Below are positions 1,513-32,430 of a stretch of 64,000 nucleotides of DNA, piece by piece (within the stretch, counting starts at the first letter, position 1; every line of letters starts with the position of its first letter). The notes under the pieces are model-generated. The model had not been told where the DNA came from. It saw only the letters and a program-made list of their open reading frames with translations, and searched no databases. Position numbers and translations under genes: made by a program. Source of the stretch: Clostridia bacterium (GTDB lineage Bacteria > Bacillota > Clostridia > TANB77 > CAG-465); assembly GCA_045538335.1 (NCBI GenBank), contig JAZSRF010000045.1, positions 5,708 to 69,707 on the forward strand, given 5' to 3'.

Positions 1513-1550
1513 TTGATAAAACAAATTTCAAAATACAAATACAAACATAA

Positions 1551-1588
1551 CAGGTGGTTCATTGGAACCACCTGTTAATTATTTATTT
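1551..1588. terminator. Rho-independent terminator hairpin (CAGGTGGTTC-ATTG-GAACCACCTG) with T-rich tail
   Basis: Perfect 10-bp inverted repeat directly after the gyrA stop. It lies between the convergent gyrA (+) and the 217-aa gene (-). Confidence 0.6.
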
Positions 1589-1595
1589 ACTTTTC

Positions 1596-2249
1596 TTACT
1601 CATTCAAATACTTGACGTAGCATTTGAGAATTTCACCGGGAATAGGACTTTCATTACAGAAATTCCATTTCTTTTTAGCAACGTCATAATAAACATTTGC
1701 TTGAAAGAGAGGAATATACGCTTCTACGCCTTCTTCTGCGGTACATTTAACAACATACTGCTTGCCTCTGTATTCTTTCAAAACAACGGCAGTAAACGGT
1801 ACGCTGCCTTTAGTAAGCACACTGTTCCTCGCCACATTAAAAGTAAACACCTTTGCCTTAAGCGTTTTTAAACCAATATCTTCTAACACTCCATAGAATG
1901 TATAATCAAAAATGCTCTCCGCACTATCAACAGTCTCTTTTTCTTGAAGCAGCTCGTACATTTTAAGAAACGCTTCGGCCACATCATTATTTTCCGAAGG
2001 ATGCCACTCATCATCTTCTAAATACATGGTGGGTTCATACAACGTCACATATTCTCTATGTCCATCTGTGTATTGCAACTCTAAAACGTCTTGTTTGCTG
2101 CCATATTGTTTCAGAAGTTCTACCTCAAATCTGTATTCTCTCGGAGCCTTTTCAAGCACTCCTTCTGGCCGATCTGCCAAAGTTACTTTTGCATTACCAG
2201 CTAACCGCGGGAAATAGGCACCATACAACTTCAAATCATAAATAGTCAT
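1596..2249 (-). CDS. hypothetical protein with an internal tandem duplication of a ~90-aa domain (paralog of 4033..4359)
   Basis: The N-terminal domain (MTIYDLKLYGAYF...LLKQYGSKQDVLELQYTDGHREYVTLYEP) is repeated in the C-terminal half (IFDYTFYGV...VVLKEYRGKQYVVKCTAEEGVEAYIPLF). GC is clearly above the genome background. Confidence 0.5.
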   Translation of the reverse strand: MTIYDLKLYGAYFPRLAGNAKVTLADRPEGVLEKAPREYRFEVELLKQYGSKQDVLELQYTDGHREYVTLYEPTMYLEDDEWHPSENNDVAEAFLKMYELLQEKETVDSAESIFDYTFYGVLEDIGLKTLKAKVFTFNVARNSVLTKGSVPFTAVVLKEYRGKQYVVKCTAEEGVEAYIPLFQANVYYDVAKKKWNFCNESPIPGEILKCYVKYLNE

Positions 2250-2330
2250 TATAATTCCCCCTAGTTTTATTTTAGGTTTTAATTATATCACATGTATTGT
2301 AGTTTTTCAATATTATAAAATACTTATTCG

Positions 2331-2359
2331 TTGATTTGTTAACATAAATATGGTATAAT
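2331..2359 (+). promoter_or_regulatory. sigmaA-type promoter (TTGATT - 17 nt - TATAAT) for the 526-aa membrane protein gene
   Basis: -35/-10 hexamers with 17-nt spacing, followed by RBS AGGAGG at 2399 and ATG at 2411. Confidence 0.4.
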
Positions 2360-2410
2360 GTTATTGTAGTTTTAGCAAAGTTCCAAAAATAATTTTTTAG
2401 GAGGATATAT

Positions 2411-3991
2411 ATGAACGGTTTAAAAACTACTATTTTGCTCATCGTCGCTATTGTTTTAGATGCCTTTATGTGGTATCTCTGGCAACCGCCTATGAACTTC
2501 TCGTCGCCTAGTTTCTGGTGGTTCGTAATCGTGTCTGTAGGGATTATCGCTTGCGCTTTGTTTATAGCCGGTTGGGAAGATGATGTTTTATTACCCGCAG
2601 GAATTGCCGGTGCCATTGTTGCCATTGCTTTTATTATTTGGCTTATCGGAGCGTGCTTCAGCGGCGGGCTTTTCAATGCCAAATTAATGTCCAATCTTCT
2701 GGATGTGGAGACCACCTCCTTTGAAGCAGAGTTTGAAAACGTTAACTGGAATACTGTTCCGCAAATCGACCACGCAAGCTCCGCCATTTTGGGTGCTAGA
2801 AAAATGGGTACTCTTGTAGAGGAAGTCTCCCAGTACAATGTAGCGGAAAATTACACATTGATTAATCAAAACGGTAAACCTACCCGTGTTGCTCCCTTGG
2901 TTTATGCGAGCGTATTCAAATACTTTAACAATAAATACCAAGGAATCCCCGGTTACATTACCGTAAACTGTGTGGAAAAGACTGCAGAGTTTGTTCGGTT
3001 GGAAAAAGGTATTCAGTATTCGCCTTCTGCTTGCTTTAGCAAAGACCTCAATCGTCATCTGAGAAGCCAGTTTCCAGGTATGCTCTTCGATGAATTTTCA
3101 TTCGAAATTGATGACGAAGGAGTACCTTACTGGGTTGTTCCCACTTATACTTATTCTTGTGGTATTGGTGGTGGCAAGACTCCTAACGGCTGTATTGTTT
3201 GCGACCCCATTACTGGTTCGGCAGATTTCTACGCTATGGATAAAATTCCCGAATGGATCGACCACGCTGTAGATGATGACACTGTCGTAAACCTTATCAA
3301 ATGGTGGGGCAAATACCAAGATGGTTGGTGGAACAGTTGGGTTAGCCAAAGAAACGTAAAACAGGCTACTGAAGGTAACAATTTTGTAACCATCGGCAAC
3401 GATGTATACCTGTACACTGGTATTACCTCCGTTGCTATGGACGAATCCAACATTGGCTTTATTTTGGTAAACCAGCGAACTGCAGAAGCAAGATACTTTG
3501 AAATGCCTTCTGCCGAAGAATACTCTGCTATGGATTCTGCAAAAGGCCAGGTACAGCATCTGAACTACACTTCTACCTTCCCTATTCTTATCAACCTTAA
3601 CGGAGAGGCTGTTTACTATCTGTCTTTGAAAGATGCTGCGGGATTAGTTAAAATGTATGCTCTCGTATCTGTAGAGGATATTCAGAAGCTTGCCGTAACA
3701 GATTCTACTTTAGGTATTGAATACCTGGTAGAGCAGTATAATAAATCTTCTAGCTCTATCCAAATTTCTGGCGGCGAGACCAAAACTATCACCTTTGATA
3801 TCGCAAACATTTATACTTGTGTAATCGAAGGTAACACACAATACTACTTTGAAGACGCAAACGGTAATGTTTATATGACAGATATTACCAAGAGTGTCAA
3901 ACTTCCTGTATATTCTGTAGGAGATAAAGTTACTATTACCTATTCTTCCACGAATGTAGAAAACTACTTCAGTATTGTAAACATTGAGTAA
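2411..3991 (+). CDS. hypothetical polytopic membrane protein (3 N-terminal TM helices + large Cys-containing extracytoplasmic domain)
   Basis: Hydrophobic N-terminal segments (ILLIVAIVLDAFMWYLW, FWWFVIVSVGIIACALFIAGW, IAGAIVAIAFIIWLIGACF). GC is ~45-50% against a ~28-30% background. Strong RBS. Confidence 0.55.
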   Translation: MNGLKTTILLIVAIVLDAFMWYLWQPPMNFSSPSFWWFVIVSVGIIACALFIAGWEDDVLLPAGIAGAIVAIAFIIWLIGACFSGGLFNAKLMSNLLDVETTSFEAEFENVNWNTVPQIDHASSAILGARKMGTLVEEVSQYNVAENYTLINQNGKPTRVAPLVYASVFKYFNNKYQGIPGYITVNCVEKTAEFVRLEKGIQYSPSACFSKDLNRHLRSQFPGMLFDEFSFEIDDEGVPYWVVPTYTYSCGIGGGKTPNGCIVCDPITGSADFYAMDKIPEWIDHAVDDDTVVNLIKWWGKYQDGWWNSWVSQRNVKQATEGNNFVTIGNDVYLYTGITSVAMDESNIGFILVNQRTAEARYFEMPSAEEYSAMDSAKGQVQHLNYTSTFPILINLNGEAVYYLSLKDAAGLVKMYALVSVEDIQKLAVTDSTLGIEYLVEQYNKSSSSIQISGGETKTITFDIANIYTCVIEGNTQYYFEDANGNVYMTDITKSVKLPVYSVGDKVTITYSSTNVENYFSIVNIE

Positions 3992-4032
3992 TCCTACAAA
4001 AGAGGAGATTCATTTGAATCTCCTCTTCCTTT

Positions 4033-4359
4033 TTATTTCTTTGAAACGCTTTCAAAATACGCCTTCATAAATGCTTCCGGTGTAGATTTATTCTTCGATT
4101 CCCTCCACATATTGTCTCCCATATCCCAGAACAAATACGGATATTTTAAGGTCTCATATGCTTCTTCGCCATTCTCAAAAACGAGTTTTAATACGTCCTG
4201 TTTGCCTCGGTATTCCTTAAGAAGAGTTATCTCAAAGAACGAGTTGTTAAAACCAGGAATACAGTGTCTGTCCTCCCTTCTTGCAAATATACTAACACCC
4301 GAAAAATCAAACTTGTACCGAAAGTACACGCCGTAAAACTTTACATCATAAATACTCAT
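4033..4359 (-). CDS. hypothetical single-domain protein, paralog of the N-terminal domain of 1596..2249
   Basis: MSIYDVKFYGVYF...LLKEYRGKQDVLKLVFENGEEAYETLKYP aligns with both repeats of the 217-aa protein. Confidence 0.5.
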   Translation of the reverse strand: MSIYDVKFYGVYFRYKFDFSGVSIFARREDRHCIPGFNNSFFEITLLKEYRGKQDVLKLVFENGEEAYETLKYPYLFWDMGDNMWRESKNKSTPEAFMKAYFESVSKK

Positions 4360-4423
4360 TATGATTCCTCCTATTATTTTATTTTACAGTCGCATTATAT
4401 CACAAAAATATGGATTAGACAAG

Positions 4424-5197
4424 CTAGTCTAACCCATAAAATTCTATTGCATTTTTATATAAAATATTCGCCACTTCATTCTTATCCATCTCTTTTATTT
4501 CAGCAATTTTTTCTATAACATATGCTATATTTAACGACTCATTTCTTTCTCCTCTATGTGGTACAGGAGCAAGATAAGGCGCATCTGTTTCTGTCATAAT
4601 ATTTTCTATTGGCATTTCTTTTATAACTCTTATTGCTGTAGCTGTCCTTTTATATGTTATATTTCCTCCAACAGATATTCTGTATCCCTTTTCTATTATA
4701 TATCTTGCTGTTTGCTCATTTAAGTCAAAACAATGAAACATTATCTTTTCCGGCTTTTTGTCAGTGCTTTCTAGAACTTCTACTGTATCTATACTTGCAT
4801 CTCTTGAATGTATTTGAACAGGAAGGCCTACATCATAAGCAAATTCCAATTGGTCTTTAAAAAGTTTTTTCTGCTCCTCTTTAAACTCTTTTGTATAGTG
4901 ATAGTCCAGTCCAATTTCTCCAATTGCAACAATTTTGTCCTTAGAGTTTTCCCCATATAGCCTTCTTAAATCGTCTGCGTTTTCCCCATATTCCACATGT
5001 TCTGGGTGAATCCCTATTGTGCAATATACATTTGTATGATTATTTGCAATAGCCAATGCTCCCGTAGAAGATTCTATTCCAGCACCAGCATTTATTATAT
5101 AATCTACACCATTTGCGAATTGTCTATCTAACGTTTGTTCTCTATCCTCGTTATATCTTTCATCTTCATAATGCGCGTGTACATCAATTATTTTCAT
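4424..5197 (-). CDS. tatD: TatD-family metal-dependent DNase/hydrolase
   Basis: MKIIDVHAHY... N-terminus and conserved His/Asp/Glu pattern of TatD; 257 aa. Confidence 0.85.
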   Translation of the reverse strand: MKIIDVHAHYEDERYNEDREQTLDRQFANGVDYIINAGAGIESSTGALAIANNHTNVYCTIGIHPEHVEYGENADDLRRLYGENSKDKIVAIGEIGLDYHYTKEFKEEQKKLFKDQLEFAYDVGLPVQIHSRDASIDTVEVLESTDKKPEKIMFHCFDLNEQTARYIIEKGYRISVGGNITYKRTATAIRVIKEMPIENIMTETDAPYLAPVPHRGERNESLNIAYVIEKIAEIKEMDKNEVANILYKNAIEFYGLD

Positions 5198-7500: not shown

Positions 7501-7929
7501 ATGAACGATAAAAAGTTTATTGTAAAACAAGGCGAAGATGAATTTGCAATTGGTTACTTTGGCGCCGACCTATATTGGGTAATGAAAAATTATCACGAGG
7601 GCAATAAATTTATAATTACCAAAAAATACGGTACCTTATACGAGGGCTTACAAACCATATTTAGATTCATGAAAATGCGCCAAGCACCCGAATTTAAGGC
7701 TAACGTCTTTAATTGGCTTAGCGAAGCAAGACTACCTGAAGAATCTAACCATATGACAATTACCAAGCAAAAAAACAAATTTGTTGTTGAATTCTTTCAA
7801 AACCCCAATGATTACATTTCTATAAGAAGTAAAACCTGTGCTATTTGTTTTTGCTTAAGTGGGAGTAAAAATCCAAGTATTGCAAACATGTTCAGCGCTC
7901 TGACGCACAAATTATTAGCGGGAGATTAA
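7501..7929 (+). CDS. hypothetical protein
   Basis: 142-aa ORF with RBS GGGAGAGG upstream; no recognisable motif. Confidence 0.4.
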   Translation: MNDKKFIVKQGEDEFAIGYFGADLYWVMKNYHEGNKFIITKKYGTLYEGLQTIFRFMKMRQAPEFKANVFNWLSEARLPEESNHMTITKQKNKFVVEFFQNPNDYISIRSKTCAICFCLSGSKNPSIANMFSALTHKLLAGD

Positions 7930-13962: not shown

Positions 13963-14011
13963 ATTTTAACCCCTTATATTTTATAATATTACTACAAATG
14001 CTATATATACA

Positions 14012-14108
14012 AAAATGTCGCCCACGGCACATAGTATCATTTGCTTATTGCTGCTTCCTTCCGGACCTGACAAGGTTCACAAACTCACTATTGCCAAAGC
14101 GACTTTAG
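14012..14108 (-). ncRNA. ffs: SRP RNA (small 4.5S/ffs type)
   Basis: The minus-strand transcript contains the domain IV motif GUCAGGUCCGGAAGGAAGCAGC (rc of 14051..14072). Terminal helix GTCGC.../...GCGAC. Sits in the canonical position upstream of dnaX. Confidence 0.65.
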
Positions 14109-32045: not shown

Positions 32046-32120
32046 ATGGTGCCCCCTGCGAGAATCGAACCCACAACTAGCCCTTAGGAGGGGCTTATTA
32101 TATCCATTTAACTAAGGGGA
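32046..32120 (-). tRNA. tRNA-Arg (anticodon CCU)
   Basis: Manual fold: acceptor GTCCCCT/AGGGGGC, D-arm GTTA-AATGGATA-TAAT, anticodon stem AGCCC/GGGCT with loop CTCCTAA, T-loop TTCGATT, encoded CCA. Confidence 0.85.
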
Positions 32121-32208
32121 CATTGCCTCTCAATTATACACAAGATTTAATTGTTTTTCAATATTTCATTGATTTTTTTGTTTTAGTAGTGTATAATAAT
32201 TCCCACAA

Positions 32209-32353: not shown

Positions 32354-32430
32354 GCGGCAGTAGCTCAATTGGATAGAGTAACGGACTACGAATCCGTCGG
32401 TTGGGGGTTCAAATCCCTTCTGCCGCACCA
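32354..32430 (+). tRNA. tRNA-Arg (anticodon ACG), intact, carried just inside the element
   Basis: Acceptor GCGGCAG/CTGCCGC, anticodon stem ACGGA/TCCGT with loop CTACGAA, T-loop GGTTCAAATCC, encoded CCA; 77 nt. Confidence 0.9.

What the first reader, a model, noticed from the sequence alone, without database searches (positions are those of the whole stretch)
1589..4360. GC-rich (~40-50%) island between gyrA and tatD: a 526-aa membrane protein flanked by paralogous proteins, one an internal tandem duplication
Base composition jumps from ~28-30% to ~45-50% GC exactly between the gyrA terminator and tatD. The island holds a 3-TM protein with a large Cys-containing ectodomain, driven by an AT-rich host-like promoter. 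On either side are a 217-aa protein made of two copies of a ~90-aa domain and a 108-aa single-domain paralog (FYG...LLKEYRGKQ(D/Y)V...EAY motifs). This looks like a horizontally acquired membrane-effector plus immunity-like duplicates module, but no family is recognisable.
Basis: seen in the sequence. Interest (0 to 1): 0.6.

Follow-up and report, generated by a model that had tools for sequence, protein, structure and literature searches.

The report
Imported membrane-protein gene beside fast-evolving orphans
The GC-rich patch between gyrA and tatD is real: a membrane-protein gene of a large uncharacterised Firmicutes family was imported there with foreign codon usage, next to a small local family of fast-evolving proteins, which makes it a fairly ordinary variable chromosomal slot and not a recognisable toxin–immunity system.

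Summary
The island is 39% GC (peaks 43-46%) against 30.4% for the rest of the window. Third-codon-position GC (GC3) is 0.36-0.42 against 0.205±0.04, and the edges are sharp at gene boundaries. The 108-aa protein matches both halves of the 217-aa protein.

The three genes are separate transcription units with different histories.
- **526-aa protein:** three membrane helices plus a beta-rich outer domain of about 430 aa. It belongs to a very large uncharacterised family found in more than 590 species, on megaplasmids and in phages; Bacillus cereus relatives are named "DUF3981 domain-containing". Elsewhere its composition matches the host.
- **In this genus-level lineage:** the gene has foreign codon usage and carries its own conserved promoter. 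It is absent from this slot in two outgroup relatives, and its tree conflicts with the flanking genes. This points to horizontal gain followed by exchange among relatives.
- **Small-domain family:** only 29 clusters among 1.84 billion proteins, all seen in this same slot, including genomes that lack the 526-aa gene. The 217-aa gene tracks the host tree. The family duplicates, fuses and splits.

I found no evidence for effector or immunity roles. The functions of all three proteins remain unknown. Interest is modest.

The parts
1548..1577 (.). Bidirectional hairpin terminator shared by convergent gyrA (+) and the 217-aa gene (-). It marks the left edge of the island.
   Evidence: 13-bp stem followed by T-runs on both strands; inverted repeat I1.
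1596..2249 (-). 217-aa cytoplasmic protein made of two copies of a lineage-restricted domain of about 105 aa. Type A covers residues 1-104 (nt 1938-2249) and type B covers residues 111-217 (nt 1599-1919).
   Evidence: Both halves match the 108-aa protein and the domain profile. There is no hydrophobic segment. GC3 is 0.358. Its tree is congruent with the host genes. dN/dS is about 0.2.
2282..2310 (-). Promoter-like site of the 217-aa gene (TTGAAA-17-TATAAT with TG extension).
   Evidence: 11 of 12 consensus matches.
2331..2359 (+). Promoter of the 526-aa gene (TTGATT-17-TGgTATAAT). It contains the 22-nt motif GTTAACATAAATATGGTATAAT at 2338-2359, which travels with this gene.
   Evidence: Promoter scan. 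The motif is unique in the 64-kb window even with 3 mismatches. It lies upstream of 526-aa homologues in three unrelated genomic contexts.
2411..3991 (+). 526-aa membrane protein with three N-terminal transmembrane helices (residues 3-24, 33-55, 61-83; nt 2417-2659) and a beta-rich C-terminal domain of about 430 aa, predicted to lie outside the membrane. It belongs to a large uncharacterised family and is a horizontally acquired allele here.
   Evidence: AlphaFold2 model, pLDDT 86.5. More than 5,792 homologous clusters and at least 592 species. hhalign probability 99.9% to a B. thuringiensis DUF3981-containing protein. GC3 is 0.412 and third-position A 0.20 against 0.44 in the host. Its tree is incongruent with the host genes.
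4000..4027 (.). Hairpin terminator between the convergent 526-aa gene (+) and 108-aa gene (-).
   Evidence: 12-bp stem plus T-run. Hairpins are found downstream of the stop in the relatives with a called stop codon; their sequences differ.
4033..4359 (-). 108-aa single-domain paralogue (type C domain). It is an extra copy present only in part of the lineage.
   Evidence: BLASTP against both halves of the 217-aa protein. AlphaFold2 model pLDDT 85.9, a beta sheet plus C-terminal helix. Present in the window and L085-L088; absent in L001, L089, L091, L104 and L111. The type C domain is elsewhere the gyrA-proximal domain or gene.
4394..4422 (-). Promoter-like site of the 108-aa gene (TTGTCT-17-TATAAT with TG extension). 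It is part of the duplicated 5' region 4322-4404, which is paralogous to 2212-2292.
   Evidence: Promoter scan; direct repeats D1 and D2.

Best explanation
The stretch is a variable chromosomal slot between gyrA and tatD in an uncultured low-GC Clostridia lineage. The window comes from an NCBI MAG contig; related contigs come from gut, rumen and other public metagenome assemblies. The slot holds two unrelated things.

(1) A resident small-protein family. These are cytoplasmic proteins built from a domain of about 105 aa (a beta sheet plus a C-terminal helix). The family is restricted to this lineage and evolves fast. Every copy whose context I examined lies in this slot. It is inherited vertically and keeps duplicating, fusing and splitting. 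The 217-aa protein is a two-domain fusion. The 108-aa protein is an extra single-domain copy that was duplicated together with its promoter.

(2) A horizontally acquired gene for a 526-aa membrane protein, with three transmembrane helices and a large conserved domain outside the membrane. It belongs to a very large uncharacterised Firmicutes family. It arrived as a self-contained unit, with its own near-consensus promoter, 5' leader and a terminator hairpin, from a GC-richer source. This happened in the common ancestor of the window's group, after the split from relatives that lack the gene here. Alleles have since been exchanged between members of the group.

Shown: the composition, codon usage, paralogy, synteny, presence/absence pattern, tree conflict, purifying selection and family membership.

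Inferred: the direction of the event (gain rather than loss), a GC-richer donor, and partial drift of the imported gene towards host composition.

Function is inferred only weakly. The 526-aa protein most likely binds or processes a cell-envelope component outside the membrane. This rests on its predicted topology, seven polar or aromatic residues invariant across the whole superfamily (Y203, R215, E232, D284, N308, T336, D408) and faint fold resemblance to beta-propeller carbohydrate enzymes. I have no supported mechanism for the small proteins. They are probably functionally independent of the membrane protein.
For: Composition and codon usage.
- GC3 is 0.36-0.42 against 0.205 ± 0.041 in the host, with sharp gene-boundary edges.
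- Host-preferred codons are avoided: ATA 0.06 vs 0.59, CCA 0.07 vs 0.57, ACA 0.14 vs 0.60. Codons that are rare in the host are used: CGG, CCC, TCG, CTG.

The anomaly is specific to this clade of alleles.
- In 72 loci, 71 of them from other species, the homologue's GC3 equals its neighbours' (difference +0.01 ± 0.04). The one large outlier among low-GC loci is L001, the window's close relative.
- Closer alleles sitting in other contexts also show an excess: L092 +0.45, L005 +0.26, L106 +0.10.

Synteny. The order gyrA, small-domain gene(s), 526-aa gene, tatD (then a histidine kinase HK and response regulator RR where the contig reaches) recurs in independent assemblies L001, L085-88, L089, L090/91, L104 and L111.

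Absence in outgroups. L094 and L105 have the small-domain gene(s) in the slot but no 526-aa gene, and their copies have host-like or only slightly raised GC3. They are outgroups by flanking genes: HK is 82-87% identical to the ingroup, against 91-96% within it.

Tree conflict (neighbour-joining bootstrap).
- Host genes: (window, L085) 0.83-0.98 and (L001, L089) 0.86-0.99.
- 217-aa gene: the same groups, 0.96 and 0.87.
- 526-aa gene: (window, L001) 1.0 and (L089, L090) 0.96.

Divergence. Nucleotide identity drops from 0.85-0.9 in the flanks to 0.55-0.8 inside the island. Synonymous sites of the 526-aa gene are near saturation (pS 0.70-0.79 against 0.45-0.6 in the flanks) while dN/dS is about 0.05. 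Even the allele with 91% amino-acid identity has dS 1.28 and dN/dS 0.04.

Promoter. The 22-nt promoter motif moves with the gene.

Family size and breadth. More than 5,792 clusters, at least 592 species, homologues in phages and on plasmids, and hhalign probability 99.9% to a DUF3981-containing protein.

Small-domain family. Only 29 representatives among 1.84 billion proteins. There is none near 526-aa homologues of other species. Domain types and their shuffling are shown.
Against: - There is no integrase, transposase, tRNA or flanking direct repeat, so the insertion mechanism is unknown.
- No donor was identified. The nearest outgroup alleles (L002, 55% identity) have host-like GC3.
- The 217-aa gene follows the host tree yet also has raised GC3 (0.29-0.41) in genomes that carry the 526-aa gene. 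A simple insertion of the 526-aa gene alone does not explain this.
- Gain versus loss rests on two outgroup contigs and parsimony.
- The trees are simple neighbour-joining trees on few taxa.
- Only contigs were seen, not whole genomes, so a second copy of the 526-aa gene elsewhere cannot be excluded.
- The functional statements rest on a predicted model and on weak Foldseek matches (E about 1e-3, TM about 0.15).
Confidence: 0.68

Rival explanations
1. Arms-race locus. The exposed outer domain of the 526-aa protein is a phage receptor or surface antigen, and its alleles are swapped between relatives to escape phages. The copy-number-variable small proteins are a cytoplasmic anti-phage or anti-toxin family that co-evolves at the same hot spot.
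For: - The island is hypervariable between conserved flanks.
- The 526-aa allele has been exchanged among relatives.
- The small domains duplicate, fuse and split.
- Homologues of the 526-aa protein are encoded by Lactobacillus Herelleviridae phages. Others sit next to restriction-modification, integrase or macro-domain genes on megaplasmids.
Against: - dN/dS of the 526-aa gene is 0.04-0.1 along the whole outer domain, with no excess of amino-acid change. The most variable part is the membrane anchor.
- The small proteins match no PADLOC or PHROG model and have no phage or plasmid relative.
- The small proteins persist without the 526-aa gene.
Confidence: 0.14
2. One reading: a horizontally acquired membrane effector (toxin) with duplicated immunity proteins on either side.
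For: - Foreign composition.
- Small, fast-evolving, duplicated neighbours resemble immunity-gene arrays in pattern.
Against: - No toxin, secretion or defence domain matches.
- In other taxa the 526-aa family is conserved, has host composition and sits among housekeeping genes such as EF-G-like, prfB, tilS, lysS and rpsL.
- The genes are not co-transcribed.
- The supposed immunity genes are vertical residents that occur without the supposed effector. The supposed effector occurs without them in the 80 other-species loci examined.
Confidence: 0.05
3. Vertical inheritance with a locus-specific process. The genes are native, and their high GC3 and fast synonymous divergence come from local mutation bias, recombination-associated GC bias, or selection on codon usage or mRNA.
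For: - The island sits at the same place, with raised GC3, in many relatives.
- The vertically inherited 217-aa gene also has raised GC3.
- The 526-aa gene has a near-consensus, probably strong, promoter.
Against: - The edges are sharp at gene boundaries.
- The shift is a loss of third-position A on the coding strand of genes on both DNA strands. It includes codons that are rare in the host, so it is neither translational optimisation nor a DNA-strand bias.
- The 526-aa tree conflicts with the host tree.
- Two outgroups lack the gene in this slot.
- The same allele clade shows GC3 of 0.66 at an unrelated position in another low-GC genome.
Confidence: 0.1
4. Assembly artefact: a chimeric metagenome contig joins DNA from two organisms.
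For: The window comes from a metagenome-assembled genome.
Against: - The same gene order and junctions are found in independent ENA, JGI, Logan and NCBI assemblies.
- The intergenic promoters and terminators are intact.
Confidence: 0.01

Closest known systems
'DUF3981 domain-containing protein' of the Bacillus cereus group (e.g. WP_000670267.1) and unnamed homologues in Lysinibacillus, Ureibacillus and Neobacillus
   Same: Same architecture: an N-terminal multi-helix membrane anchor followed by an outer domain of about 430 aa. The outer domains are homologous (hhalign probability 99.9%, E 1.7e-33, 416 aligned columns, 28% identity). All are uncharacterised.
   Different: Pfam DUF3981 models only the N-terminal membrane part of the Bacillus proteins (residues 13-127) and does not match the window protein. 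Identity is about 21-24%. The window gene is a foreign allele in its genome.
MAG proteins that NCBI names 'CvpA family protein' (P0040, P0048)
   Same: They are true homologues over the full length (44-59% identity).
   Different: No CvpA/Colicin V model appeared for the window protein or among the 25 most frequently matched Pfam families of the 32 family members scanned. How NCBI arrived at the name was not established; by inference it reflects only the short membrane anchor. CvpA proteins are small proteins of about 160 aa with four transmembrane helices and no large outer domain (general knowledge).
Phage and megaplasmid homologues: Lactobacillus phage 521B B521_0014 'membrane associated protein', phage SAC12B, L. 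salivarius pHN3/pMP118-type megaplasmids, B. thuringiensis Bt407 plasmid BTB_502p
   Same: The outer domain is homologous (tblastn E 1e-17 to 2e-64 over 63-82% of the query). They show that the family does move on mobile DNA.
   Different: Only 23-34% identical. They sit next to transposases, an integrase, restriction-modification and methylase genes. None of these is present in the window island.
Replacement islands between conserved flanking genes, as at capsule or O-antigen loci and other loci subject to xenologous gene displacement
   Same: Fixed position, conserved flanks, a sharp drop in identity, atypical composition, and alleles whose tree disagrees with the flanks.
   Different: A single gene, not a biosynthetic cluster. 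There is no evidence of diversifying selection. The comparison rests on general knowledge of such loci, not on a test.
Immunity-gene arrays of polymorphic toxin systems
   Same: Small, fast-evolving, tandemly duplicated or fused cytoplasmic proteins with variable copy number.
   Different: There is no adjacent toxin or delivery domain, no co-transcription, and no match to any known immunity family or fold.

Membership tests
Horizontally acquired genomic islet | Base composition and codon usage atypical for the host, with sharp borders | tested here: met
   GC3 z-scores are 3.7-5.3. Third-position A is 0.20-0.27 against 0.44. ATA, CCA and ACA are avoided, and host-rare codons are used. Borders are sharp.
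Horizontally acquired genomic islet | Presence/absence polymorphism among close relatives | tested here: met
   The 526-aa gene is absent from the slot in L094 and L105. The 108-aa gene is absent in L001, L089, L091, L104 and L111.
Horizontally acquired genomic islet | Gene tree incongruent with flanking or host genes | tested here: met
   Met for the 526-aa gene: (window, L001) 1.0 against host (window, L085) and (L001, L089). Not met for the 217-aa gene, which is congruent with the host.
Horizontally acquired genomic islet | Mobility hallmarks (integrase or transposase, tRNA target, flanking direct repeats) | tested here: not met
   None among the ORFs, in Rfam or in the repeat scan.
Toxin/effector-immunity module | Recognisable toxin or delivery domain in the large protein | tested here: not met
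   No Pfam, NCBIfam, PHROG or PADLOC match. Selection is strongly purifying and the family looks core-like.
Toxin/effector-immunity module | Immunity gene co-transcribed with, and co-occurring with, the effector | tested here: not met
   Separate divergent or convergent units. The small genes occur without the 526-aa gene. The 526-aa gene occurs without them in 80 other-species loci.
Toxin/effector-immunity module | Toxicity that is neutralised by the neighbouring protein | not testable with these tools
   Needs expression experiments.
526-aa superfamily (DUF3981-containing / unnamed outer-domain family) | Homologous outer domain of about 430 aa after an N-terminal membrane anchor | tested here: met
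   hhalign probability 99.9%. Alignments A1 and A4 have invariant Y203, R215, E232, D284, N308, T336 and D408. Model.
526-aa superfamily (DUF3981-containing / unnamed outer-domain family) | Match to Pfam PF13139 (DUF3981) in the N-terminal region | tested here: not met
   There is no match for the window protein, and DUF3981 is not among the 25 most frequently matched Pfam families of the 32 relatives scanned. The model covers only residues 13-127 of the Bacillus protein.
CvpA / colicin V production protein family | Match to the CvpA (Colicin_V) model; small four-helix membrane protein | tested here: not met
   No Pfam or NCBIfam match at E ≤ 1 for the window protein. Among the 32 relatives scanned, Colicin_V is not among the 25 listed Pfam families of 40 matched. 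The architecture differs.
Known anti-phage defence systems | Match to a PADLOC model | tested here: not met
   No match for any of the three proteins at E ≤ 1.
Beta-propeller carbohydrate-active enzymes (GH68/GH43/GH130/PL24-like) | Significant structural superposition of the outer domain on a propeller enzyme, with catalytic residues aligned | tested here: inconclusive

The most novel reading that the evidence does not exclude
The 526-aa superfamily may be a so-far unrecognised, nearly universal Firmicutes cell-surface enzyme or receptor. It has thousands of members and no Pfam, NCBIfam or solved-structure coverage of its outer domain. On this reading its exposure makes it a phage target, so alleles are swapped between species and copied by phages. 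The lineage-restricted A/B/C small-domain proteins in the same slot would then be a new cytoplasmic counter-defence or immunity family that diversifies alongside it.
Probability: 0.1. Interest if true: 0.6.

Novelty: new member of a known kind. Interest (0 to 1): 0.3.

Why it matters
As a genome feature this is an ordinary case of an imported gene in a variable chromosomal slot. It mainly serves as a warning that neighbouring 'paralogue-flanked' genes need not form a functional module. Two by-products may be useful.

First, it flags a very large protein family that is conserved and still uncharacterised. The family is found on Firmicutes chromosomes (including reduced genomes), on megaplasmids and in Herelleviridae phages. 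Its outer domain has no Pfam or NCBIfam model and no solved structure, and database names for it ('CvpA family', 'TauE/SafE', 'DMT transporter') appear unsupported.

Second, it gives a clean natural example of two things at one locus: the same gene at several levels of excess GC3 in low-GC hosts (0.28 to 0.66), read here as stages of drift towards host composition, and a gene exchanged among relatives while its immediate neighbour is inherited vertically.

Tried and rejected
**Family and structure searches that found nothing**
- Pfam, NCBIfam, PHROGs and PADLOC scans of the three proteins gave nothing usable.
- Pfam on 32 family members and NCBIfam on 34 gave only scattered matches driven by the transmembrane helices.
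- Profile searches of PDB sequences with A1 and with the broader A4 hit only transmembrane-helix noise.
- Foldseek of the full 526-aa model against PDB gave weak propeller-like hits only.
- Foldseek of the 108-aa model against PDB and against viral structures (BFVD) found no fold match.
- tblastn of the 217-aa protein against phages and plasmids found nothing.
- Literature searches for 'CvpA family protein', DUF3981 and the homologues' accessions found no papers.
- Rfam on the island found no RNA element.
- There are no flanking att-like repeats.

**Ideas considered and rejected**
- Translational selection as the cause of high GC3: rejected because host-rare codons are used.
- A diffuse regional GC effect: rejected because the edges are sharp.
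- Mosaic recombination inside the 526-aa gene: sliding-window identities gave no clear breakpoints.
- A conserved functional neighbourhood for the 526-aa family: neighbours differ between taxa and are housekeeping genes.
- Gene-wide positive selection: rejected by dN/dS of 0.04-0.1.
- Linking the host of L092 to the window lineage: the two share no genes in the sequence available.

Full report
**1. What is there**

The left end of the window reads as follows:
- gyrA C-terminus, 37-1512, + strand
- a 217-aa ORF, 1596-2249, - strand
- a 526-aa ORF, 2411-3991, + strand
- a 108-aa ORF, 4033-4359, - strand
- tatD, 4424-5197, - strand
- a histidine kinase (HK) and a response regulator (RR), both on the - strand

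Each island gene is its own transcription unit:
- Divergent promoters lie at 2282-2310 (-) and 2331-2359 (+).
- A third promoter lies at 4394-4422 (-).
- Hairpin terminators at 1548-1577 and 4000-4027 are shared by convergent genes.

**2. The compositional observation**

The island is 39.0% GC against 30.4% for the rest of the window. It is the top-ranking window of its length.

The signal is strong at third codon positions. GC3 is 0.358, 0.412 and 0.422 for the three genes, against 0.205 ± 0.041 for 48 other ORFs (z = 3.7-5.3). It switches on and off at gene boundaries.

The shift is a loss of A-ending codons on the coding strand of genes that lie on both DNA strands:

| Codon | Island | Host |
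|---|---|---|
| ATA | 0.06 | 0.59 |
| CCA | 0.07 | 0.57 |
| ACA | 0.14 | 0.60 |

The island genes also use codons that the host almost never uses: CGG, CCC, TCG, CTG and CTC. This is foreign codon usage. It is neither translational optimisation nor a DNA-strand mutation bias.

**3. The paralogy**

The 108-aa protein matches both halves of the 217-aa protein (E 1e-17 and 6e-13). The 5' ends of the two genes, including ribosome-binding site and -10 box, are also about 76-79% identical as DNA. So the duplication carried the promoter with it.

Neither small protein has a hydrophobic segment. The AlphaFold2 model of the domain (pLDDT 85.9) is an antiparallel sheet followed by a C-terminal helix. 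It has no significant match in PDB or among viral structures.

**4. The 526-aa protein belongs to a huge uncharacterised family**

- It has more than 5,792 homologous clusters of very constant length.
- Relatives occur in at least 592 species genomes: Lachnospiraceae, Oscillospiraceae, Erysipelotrichaceae, many small-genome Bacilli MAGs, and cultured Mediterraneibacter, Robinsoniella and Murimonas.
- The model (pLDDT 86.5) has three N-terminal transmembrane helices and a beta-rich domain of about 430 residues. By the positive-inside rule applied to the family alignment (inference), this domain lies outside the membrane.
- No Pfam, NCBIfam or PDB entry covers that outer domain.
- More distant homologues include the B. 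cereus group "DUF3981 domain-containing protein". The Pfam model DUF3981 covers only the membrane anchor, but the outer domains align at hhalign probability 99.9%.
- Other distant homologues lie on L. salivarius and B. thuringiensis megaplasmids, in Vibrio and Bacteroidota replicons, and in Lactobacillus Herelleviridae phages.
- Database names such as "CvpA family", "TauE/SafE" and "DMT transporter" are not supported by any model match I obtained for the window protein.
- I found no paper on the family.
- In other taxa the gene sits among unrelated housekeeping genes: EF-G-like, prfB, tilS, leuS, trkAH, and lysS/rpsL in Aerococcus. Context therefore gives no functional clue.
- Fold search gives only faint resemblance to beta-propeller carbohydrate enzymes.
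- Seven polar or aromatic residues are invariant across the whole superfamily: Y203, R215, E232, D284, N308, T336 and D408. This hints at a defined binding or catalytic site.

**5. The compositional anomaly is lineage-specific**

In 72 loci, 71 of them from other species, the homologue's GC3 equals that of its neighbours (+0.01 ± 0.04). The one large outlier among low-GC loci is L001, the window's close relative.

Within the clade of alleles 52-91% identical to the window protein, several low-GC genomes carry GC-enriched copies:

| Locus | Genomic context | GC3 of the 526-aa gene |
|---|---|---|
| window | gyrA-tatD slot | 0.41 |
| L001 | gyrA-tatD slot | 0.38 |
| L085 | gyrA-tatD slot | 0.38 |
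| L104 | gyrA-tatD slot | 0.43 |
| L089 | gyrA-tatD slot | 0.46 |
| L091 | gyrA-tatD slot | 0.28 |
| L111 | gyrA-tatD slot | 0.27 |
| L092 | next to a bactofilin gene | 0.66 |
| L005 | other context | 0.43 |
| L106 | next to pheST | 0.28 |
| L002 | other context | 0.19 (host-like) |

L092 is sister to the whole gyrA-tatD clade in the protein tree.

A 22-nt promoter motif (GTTWACATAAATRTGRTATAAT) is unique in the 64-kb window. Together with a similar 5' leader, it precedes the gene in all of these unrelated contexts; a hairpin follows the stop in most, with differing sequences. So in this clade the gene behaves as a self-contained unit.

**6. Comparison with close relatives**

Independent assemblies from ENA, JGI, Logan and NCBI share the order gyrA, small-domain gene(s), 526-aa gene, tatD, HK, RR. 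This rules out a chimeric contig.

Amino-acid identity among these relatives:

| Gene | Identity (%) |
|---|---|
| GyrA | 93-97 |
| HK | 91-96 |
| RR | 97-98 |
| TatD | 78-88 |
| 526-aa protein | 64-82 |
| 217-aa protein | 51-77 |

Nucleotide identity falls from 0.85-0.9 to 0.55-0.8 exactly inside the island.

Synonymous sites of the 526-aa gene are near saturation (pS 0.70-0.79 against 0.45-0.6 in the flanks), while dN/dS stays around 0.05. Even the closest allele, at 91% amino-acid identity, has dS 1.28 and dN/dS 0.04. The only relaxed part is the membrane anchor, at 0.15. So the protein is under purifying selection, not gene-wide diversifying selection. Its alleles are older than the host split, or have diverged faster at silent sites than the flanks.

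**7. Different histories inside the island**

Neighbour-joining bootstraps give these groupings:

| Data set | Groupings and support |
|---|---|
| HK + TatD, and GyrA | (window, L085) 0.83-0.98; (L001, L089) 0.86-0.99 |
| 217-aa gene | (window, L085) 0.96; (L001, L089) 0.87 |
| 526-aa gene | (window, L001) 1.0; (L089, L090) 0.96 |

The 217-aa gene agrees with the host genes. The 526-aa gene does not.

The 108-aa copy is present in the (window, L085-88) host clade. It is absent from L001 even though L001 carries the window-like 526-aa allele.

Two relatives are outgroups by HK (82-87%), GyrA and TatD identity. Both lack the 526-aa gene in this slot.
- L094 has tatD, a borderline 6S RNA hit, a 235-aa two-domain gene and gyrA. 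The two-domain gene has host-like GC3 of 0.23.
- L105 has tatD, two single-domain genes (GC3 0.23 and 0.29) and gyrA.

Parsimony therefore favours one gain of the 526-aa gene in the ingroup ancestor, followed by exchange among ingroup members.

**8. The small-domain family**

An exhaustive profile search finds only 29 cluster representatives among 1.84 billion proteins. They occur as one-domain forms (about 105-134 aa) and two-domain forms (about 206-235 aa). Every copy whose context I could read lies in the gyrA-tatD slot. None lies near 526-aa homologues of other species.

Domain types A, B and C can be told apart.
- The window has type C alone (the 108-aa protein) on the tatD side, and an A-B fusion (the 217-aa protein) on the gyrA side.
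- L104 has a divergent single copy plus an A'-C fusion.
- L091 has the two domains as separate genes.
- L090 and L087 carry frameshifted or disrupted copies.

dN/dS is about 0.2. So these are real genes, fast-evolving but constrained, that undergo duplication, fusion and fission.

**9. Interpretation**

The island is not one module. It is a permissive, variable slot with a resident orphan gene family. A self-contained copy of a widespread membrane-protein gene was imported into it from a GC-richer source and then exchanged among relatives.

A rough consistency check (my estimate, not a fitted model): host dS of about 0.7-1.2 between relatives would remove roughly half of an initial GC3 excess. 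That is compatible with a start near the 0.66 seen in L092 and present values of 0.27-0.46. Directional GC-to-AT drift would also inflate dS in the imported gene.

**10. What remains unexplained**

- The vertically inherited 217-aa gene also has raised GC3 (0.29-0.41) in genomes that carry the 526-aa gene, but not in the L094 outgroup. Possible causes are co-import of a 217-aa allele in the ancestor or a recombination-associated effect. I could not separate them.
- No donor was found, and there are no mobility genes or repeats.
- The functions of both families are unknown.

The effector/immunity reading fails every test I could apply (section 7). An arms-race reading, with the 526-aa protein as a phage receptor, fits the allele exchange and the phage-borne homologues. 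It is not supported by dN/dS.

**11. Verdict**

This is a real but fairly ordinary horizontally acquired gene in a variable slot. It is made of two uncharacterised families, one very large and one tiny.

Noticed in passing
L094:5760-5904 (+); compare window 3992-4423: In the outgroup relative that lacks the 526-aa gene, the tatD-to-small-gene spacer carries a borderline 6S/SsrS RNA hit (47 bits against a gathering score of 46.4). This is exactly where the 526-aa gene sits in the window lineage. No 6S RNA is detected anywhere in the 64-kb window or in the other related loci.
   Followed up: partly
window 7501-7929 (+): A 142-aa ORF with no Pfam match is a fourth compositional outlier (GC3 0.35), 3 kb from the island, just beyond the response-regulator gene. 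The corresponding slot in L085 holds a 143-aa ORF with GC3 0.37. This may be a second small imported gene.
   Followed up: partly
window 2338-2359 (+); L002:332-353, L092:900-921, L106:5635-5656: A 22-nt promoter motif, GTTWACATAAATRTGRTATAAT, is unique in the window. It is conserved upstream of 526-aa homologues in unrelated genomic contexts, together with a CCAAA(A/T)AATAATTT leader. This suggests a specific, conserved control region that moves with the gene.
   Followed up: partly
L092:1-2558: A sister allele of the 526-aa gene has 51% GC and GC3 0.66 inside a genome of about 30% GC, next to a bactofilin gene. It is preceded by a partial 275-aa ORF (GC3 0.34, no Pfam match). This is probably an independent or more recent import.
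   Followed up: partly
L091:7179-7831, L090:7101-7831, L087:4303-4991, L104:2827-3939, L111:2666-3108: The small-domain genes differ between relatives. The two domains are separate genes in L091 and frameshifted or disrupted in L090 and L087. L104 has a third, divergent 99-aa copy. In L111 a 445-nt spacer with a 48-aa ORF replaces the 108-aa gene.
   Followed up: partly
L101:4446-6149 (Lactobacillus phage 521B, B521_0014): A Herelleviridae phage encodes a 567-aa homologue of the 526-aa protein, in a region with transposase and resolvase genes within about 4 kb upstream and immediately downstream. Its role in the phage is unknown.
   Followed up: no
window 14011-14106 (-), 32050-32121 (-), 32354-32427 (+): A bacterial small SRP RNA and two tRNA genes. 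These are the only Rfam gathering-level hits in the window.
   Followed up: no
L002-L004, positions 1-410: Three independent JGI contigs carrying the 55%-identical homologue all begin about 410 nt upstream of the gene. This suggests a repeat or assembly break just upstream.
   Followed up: no
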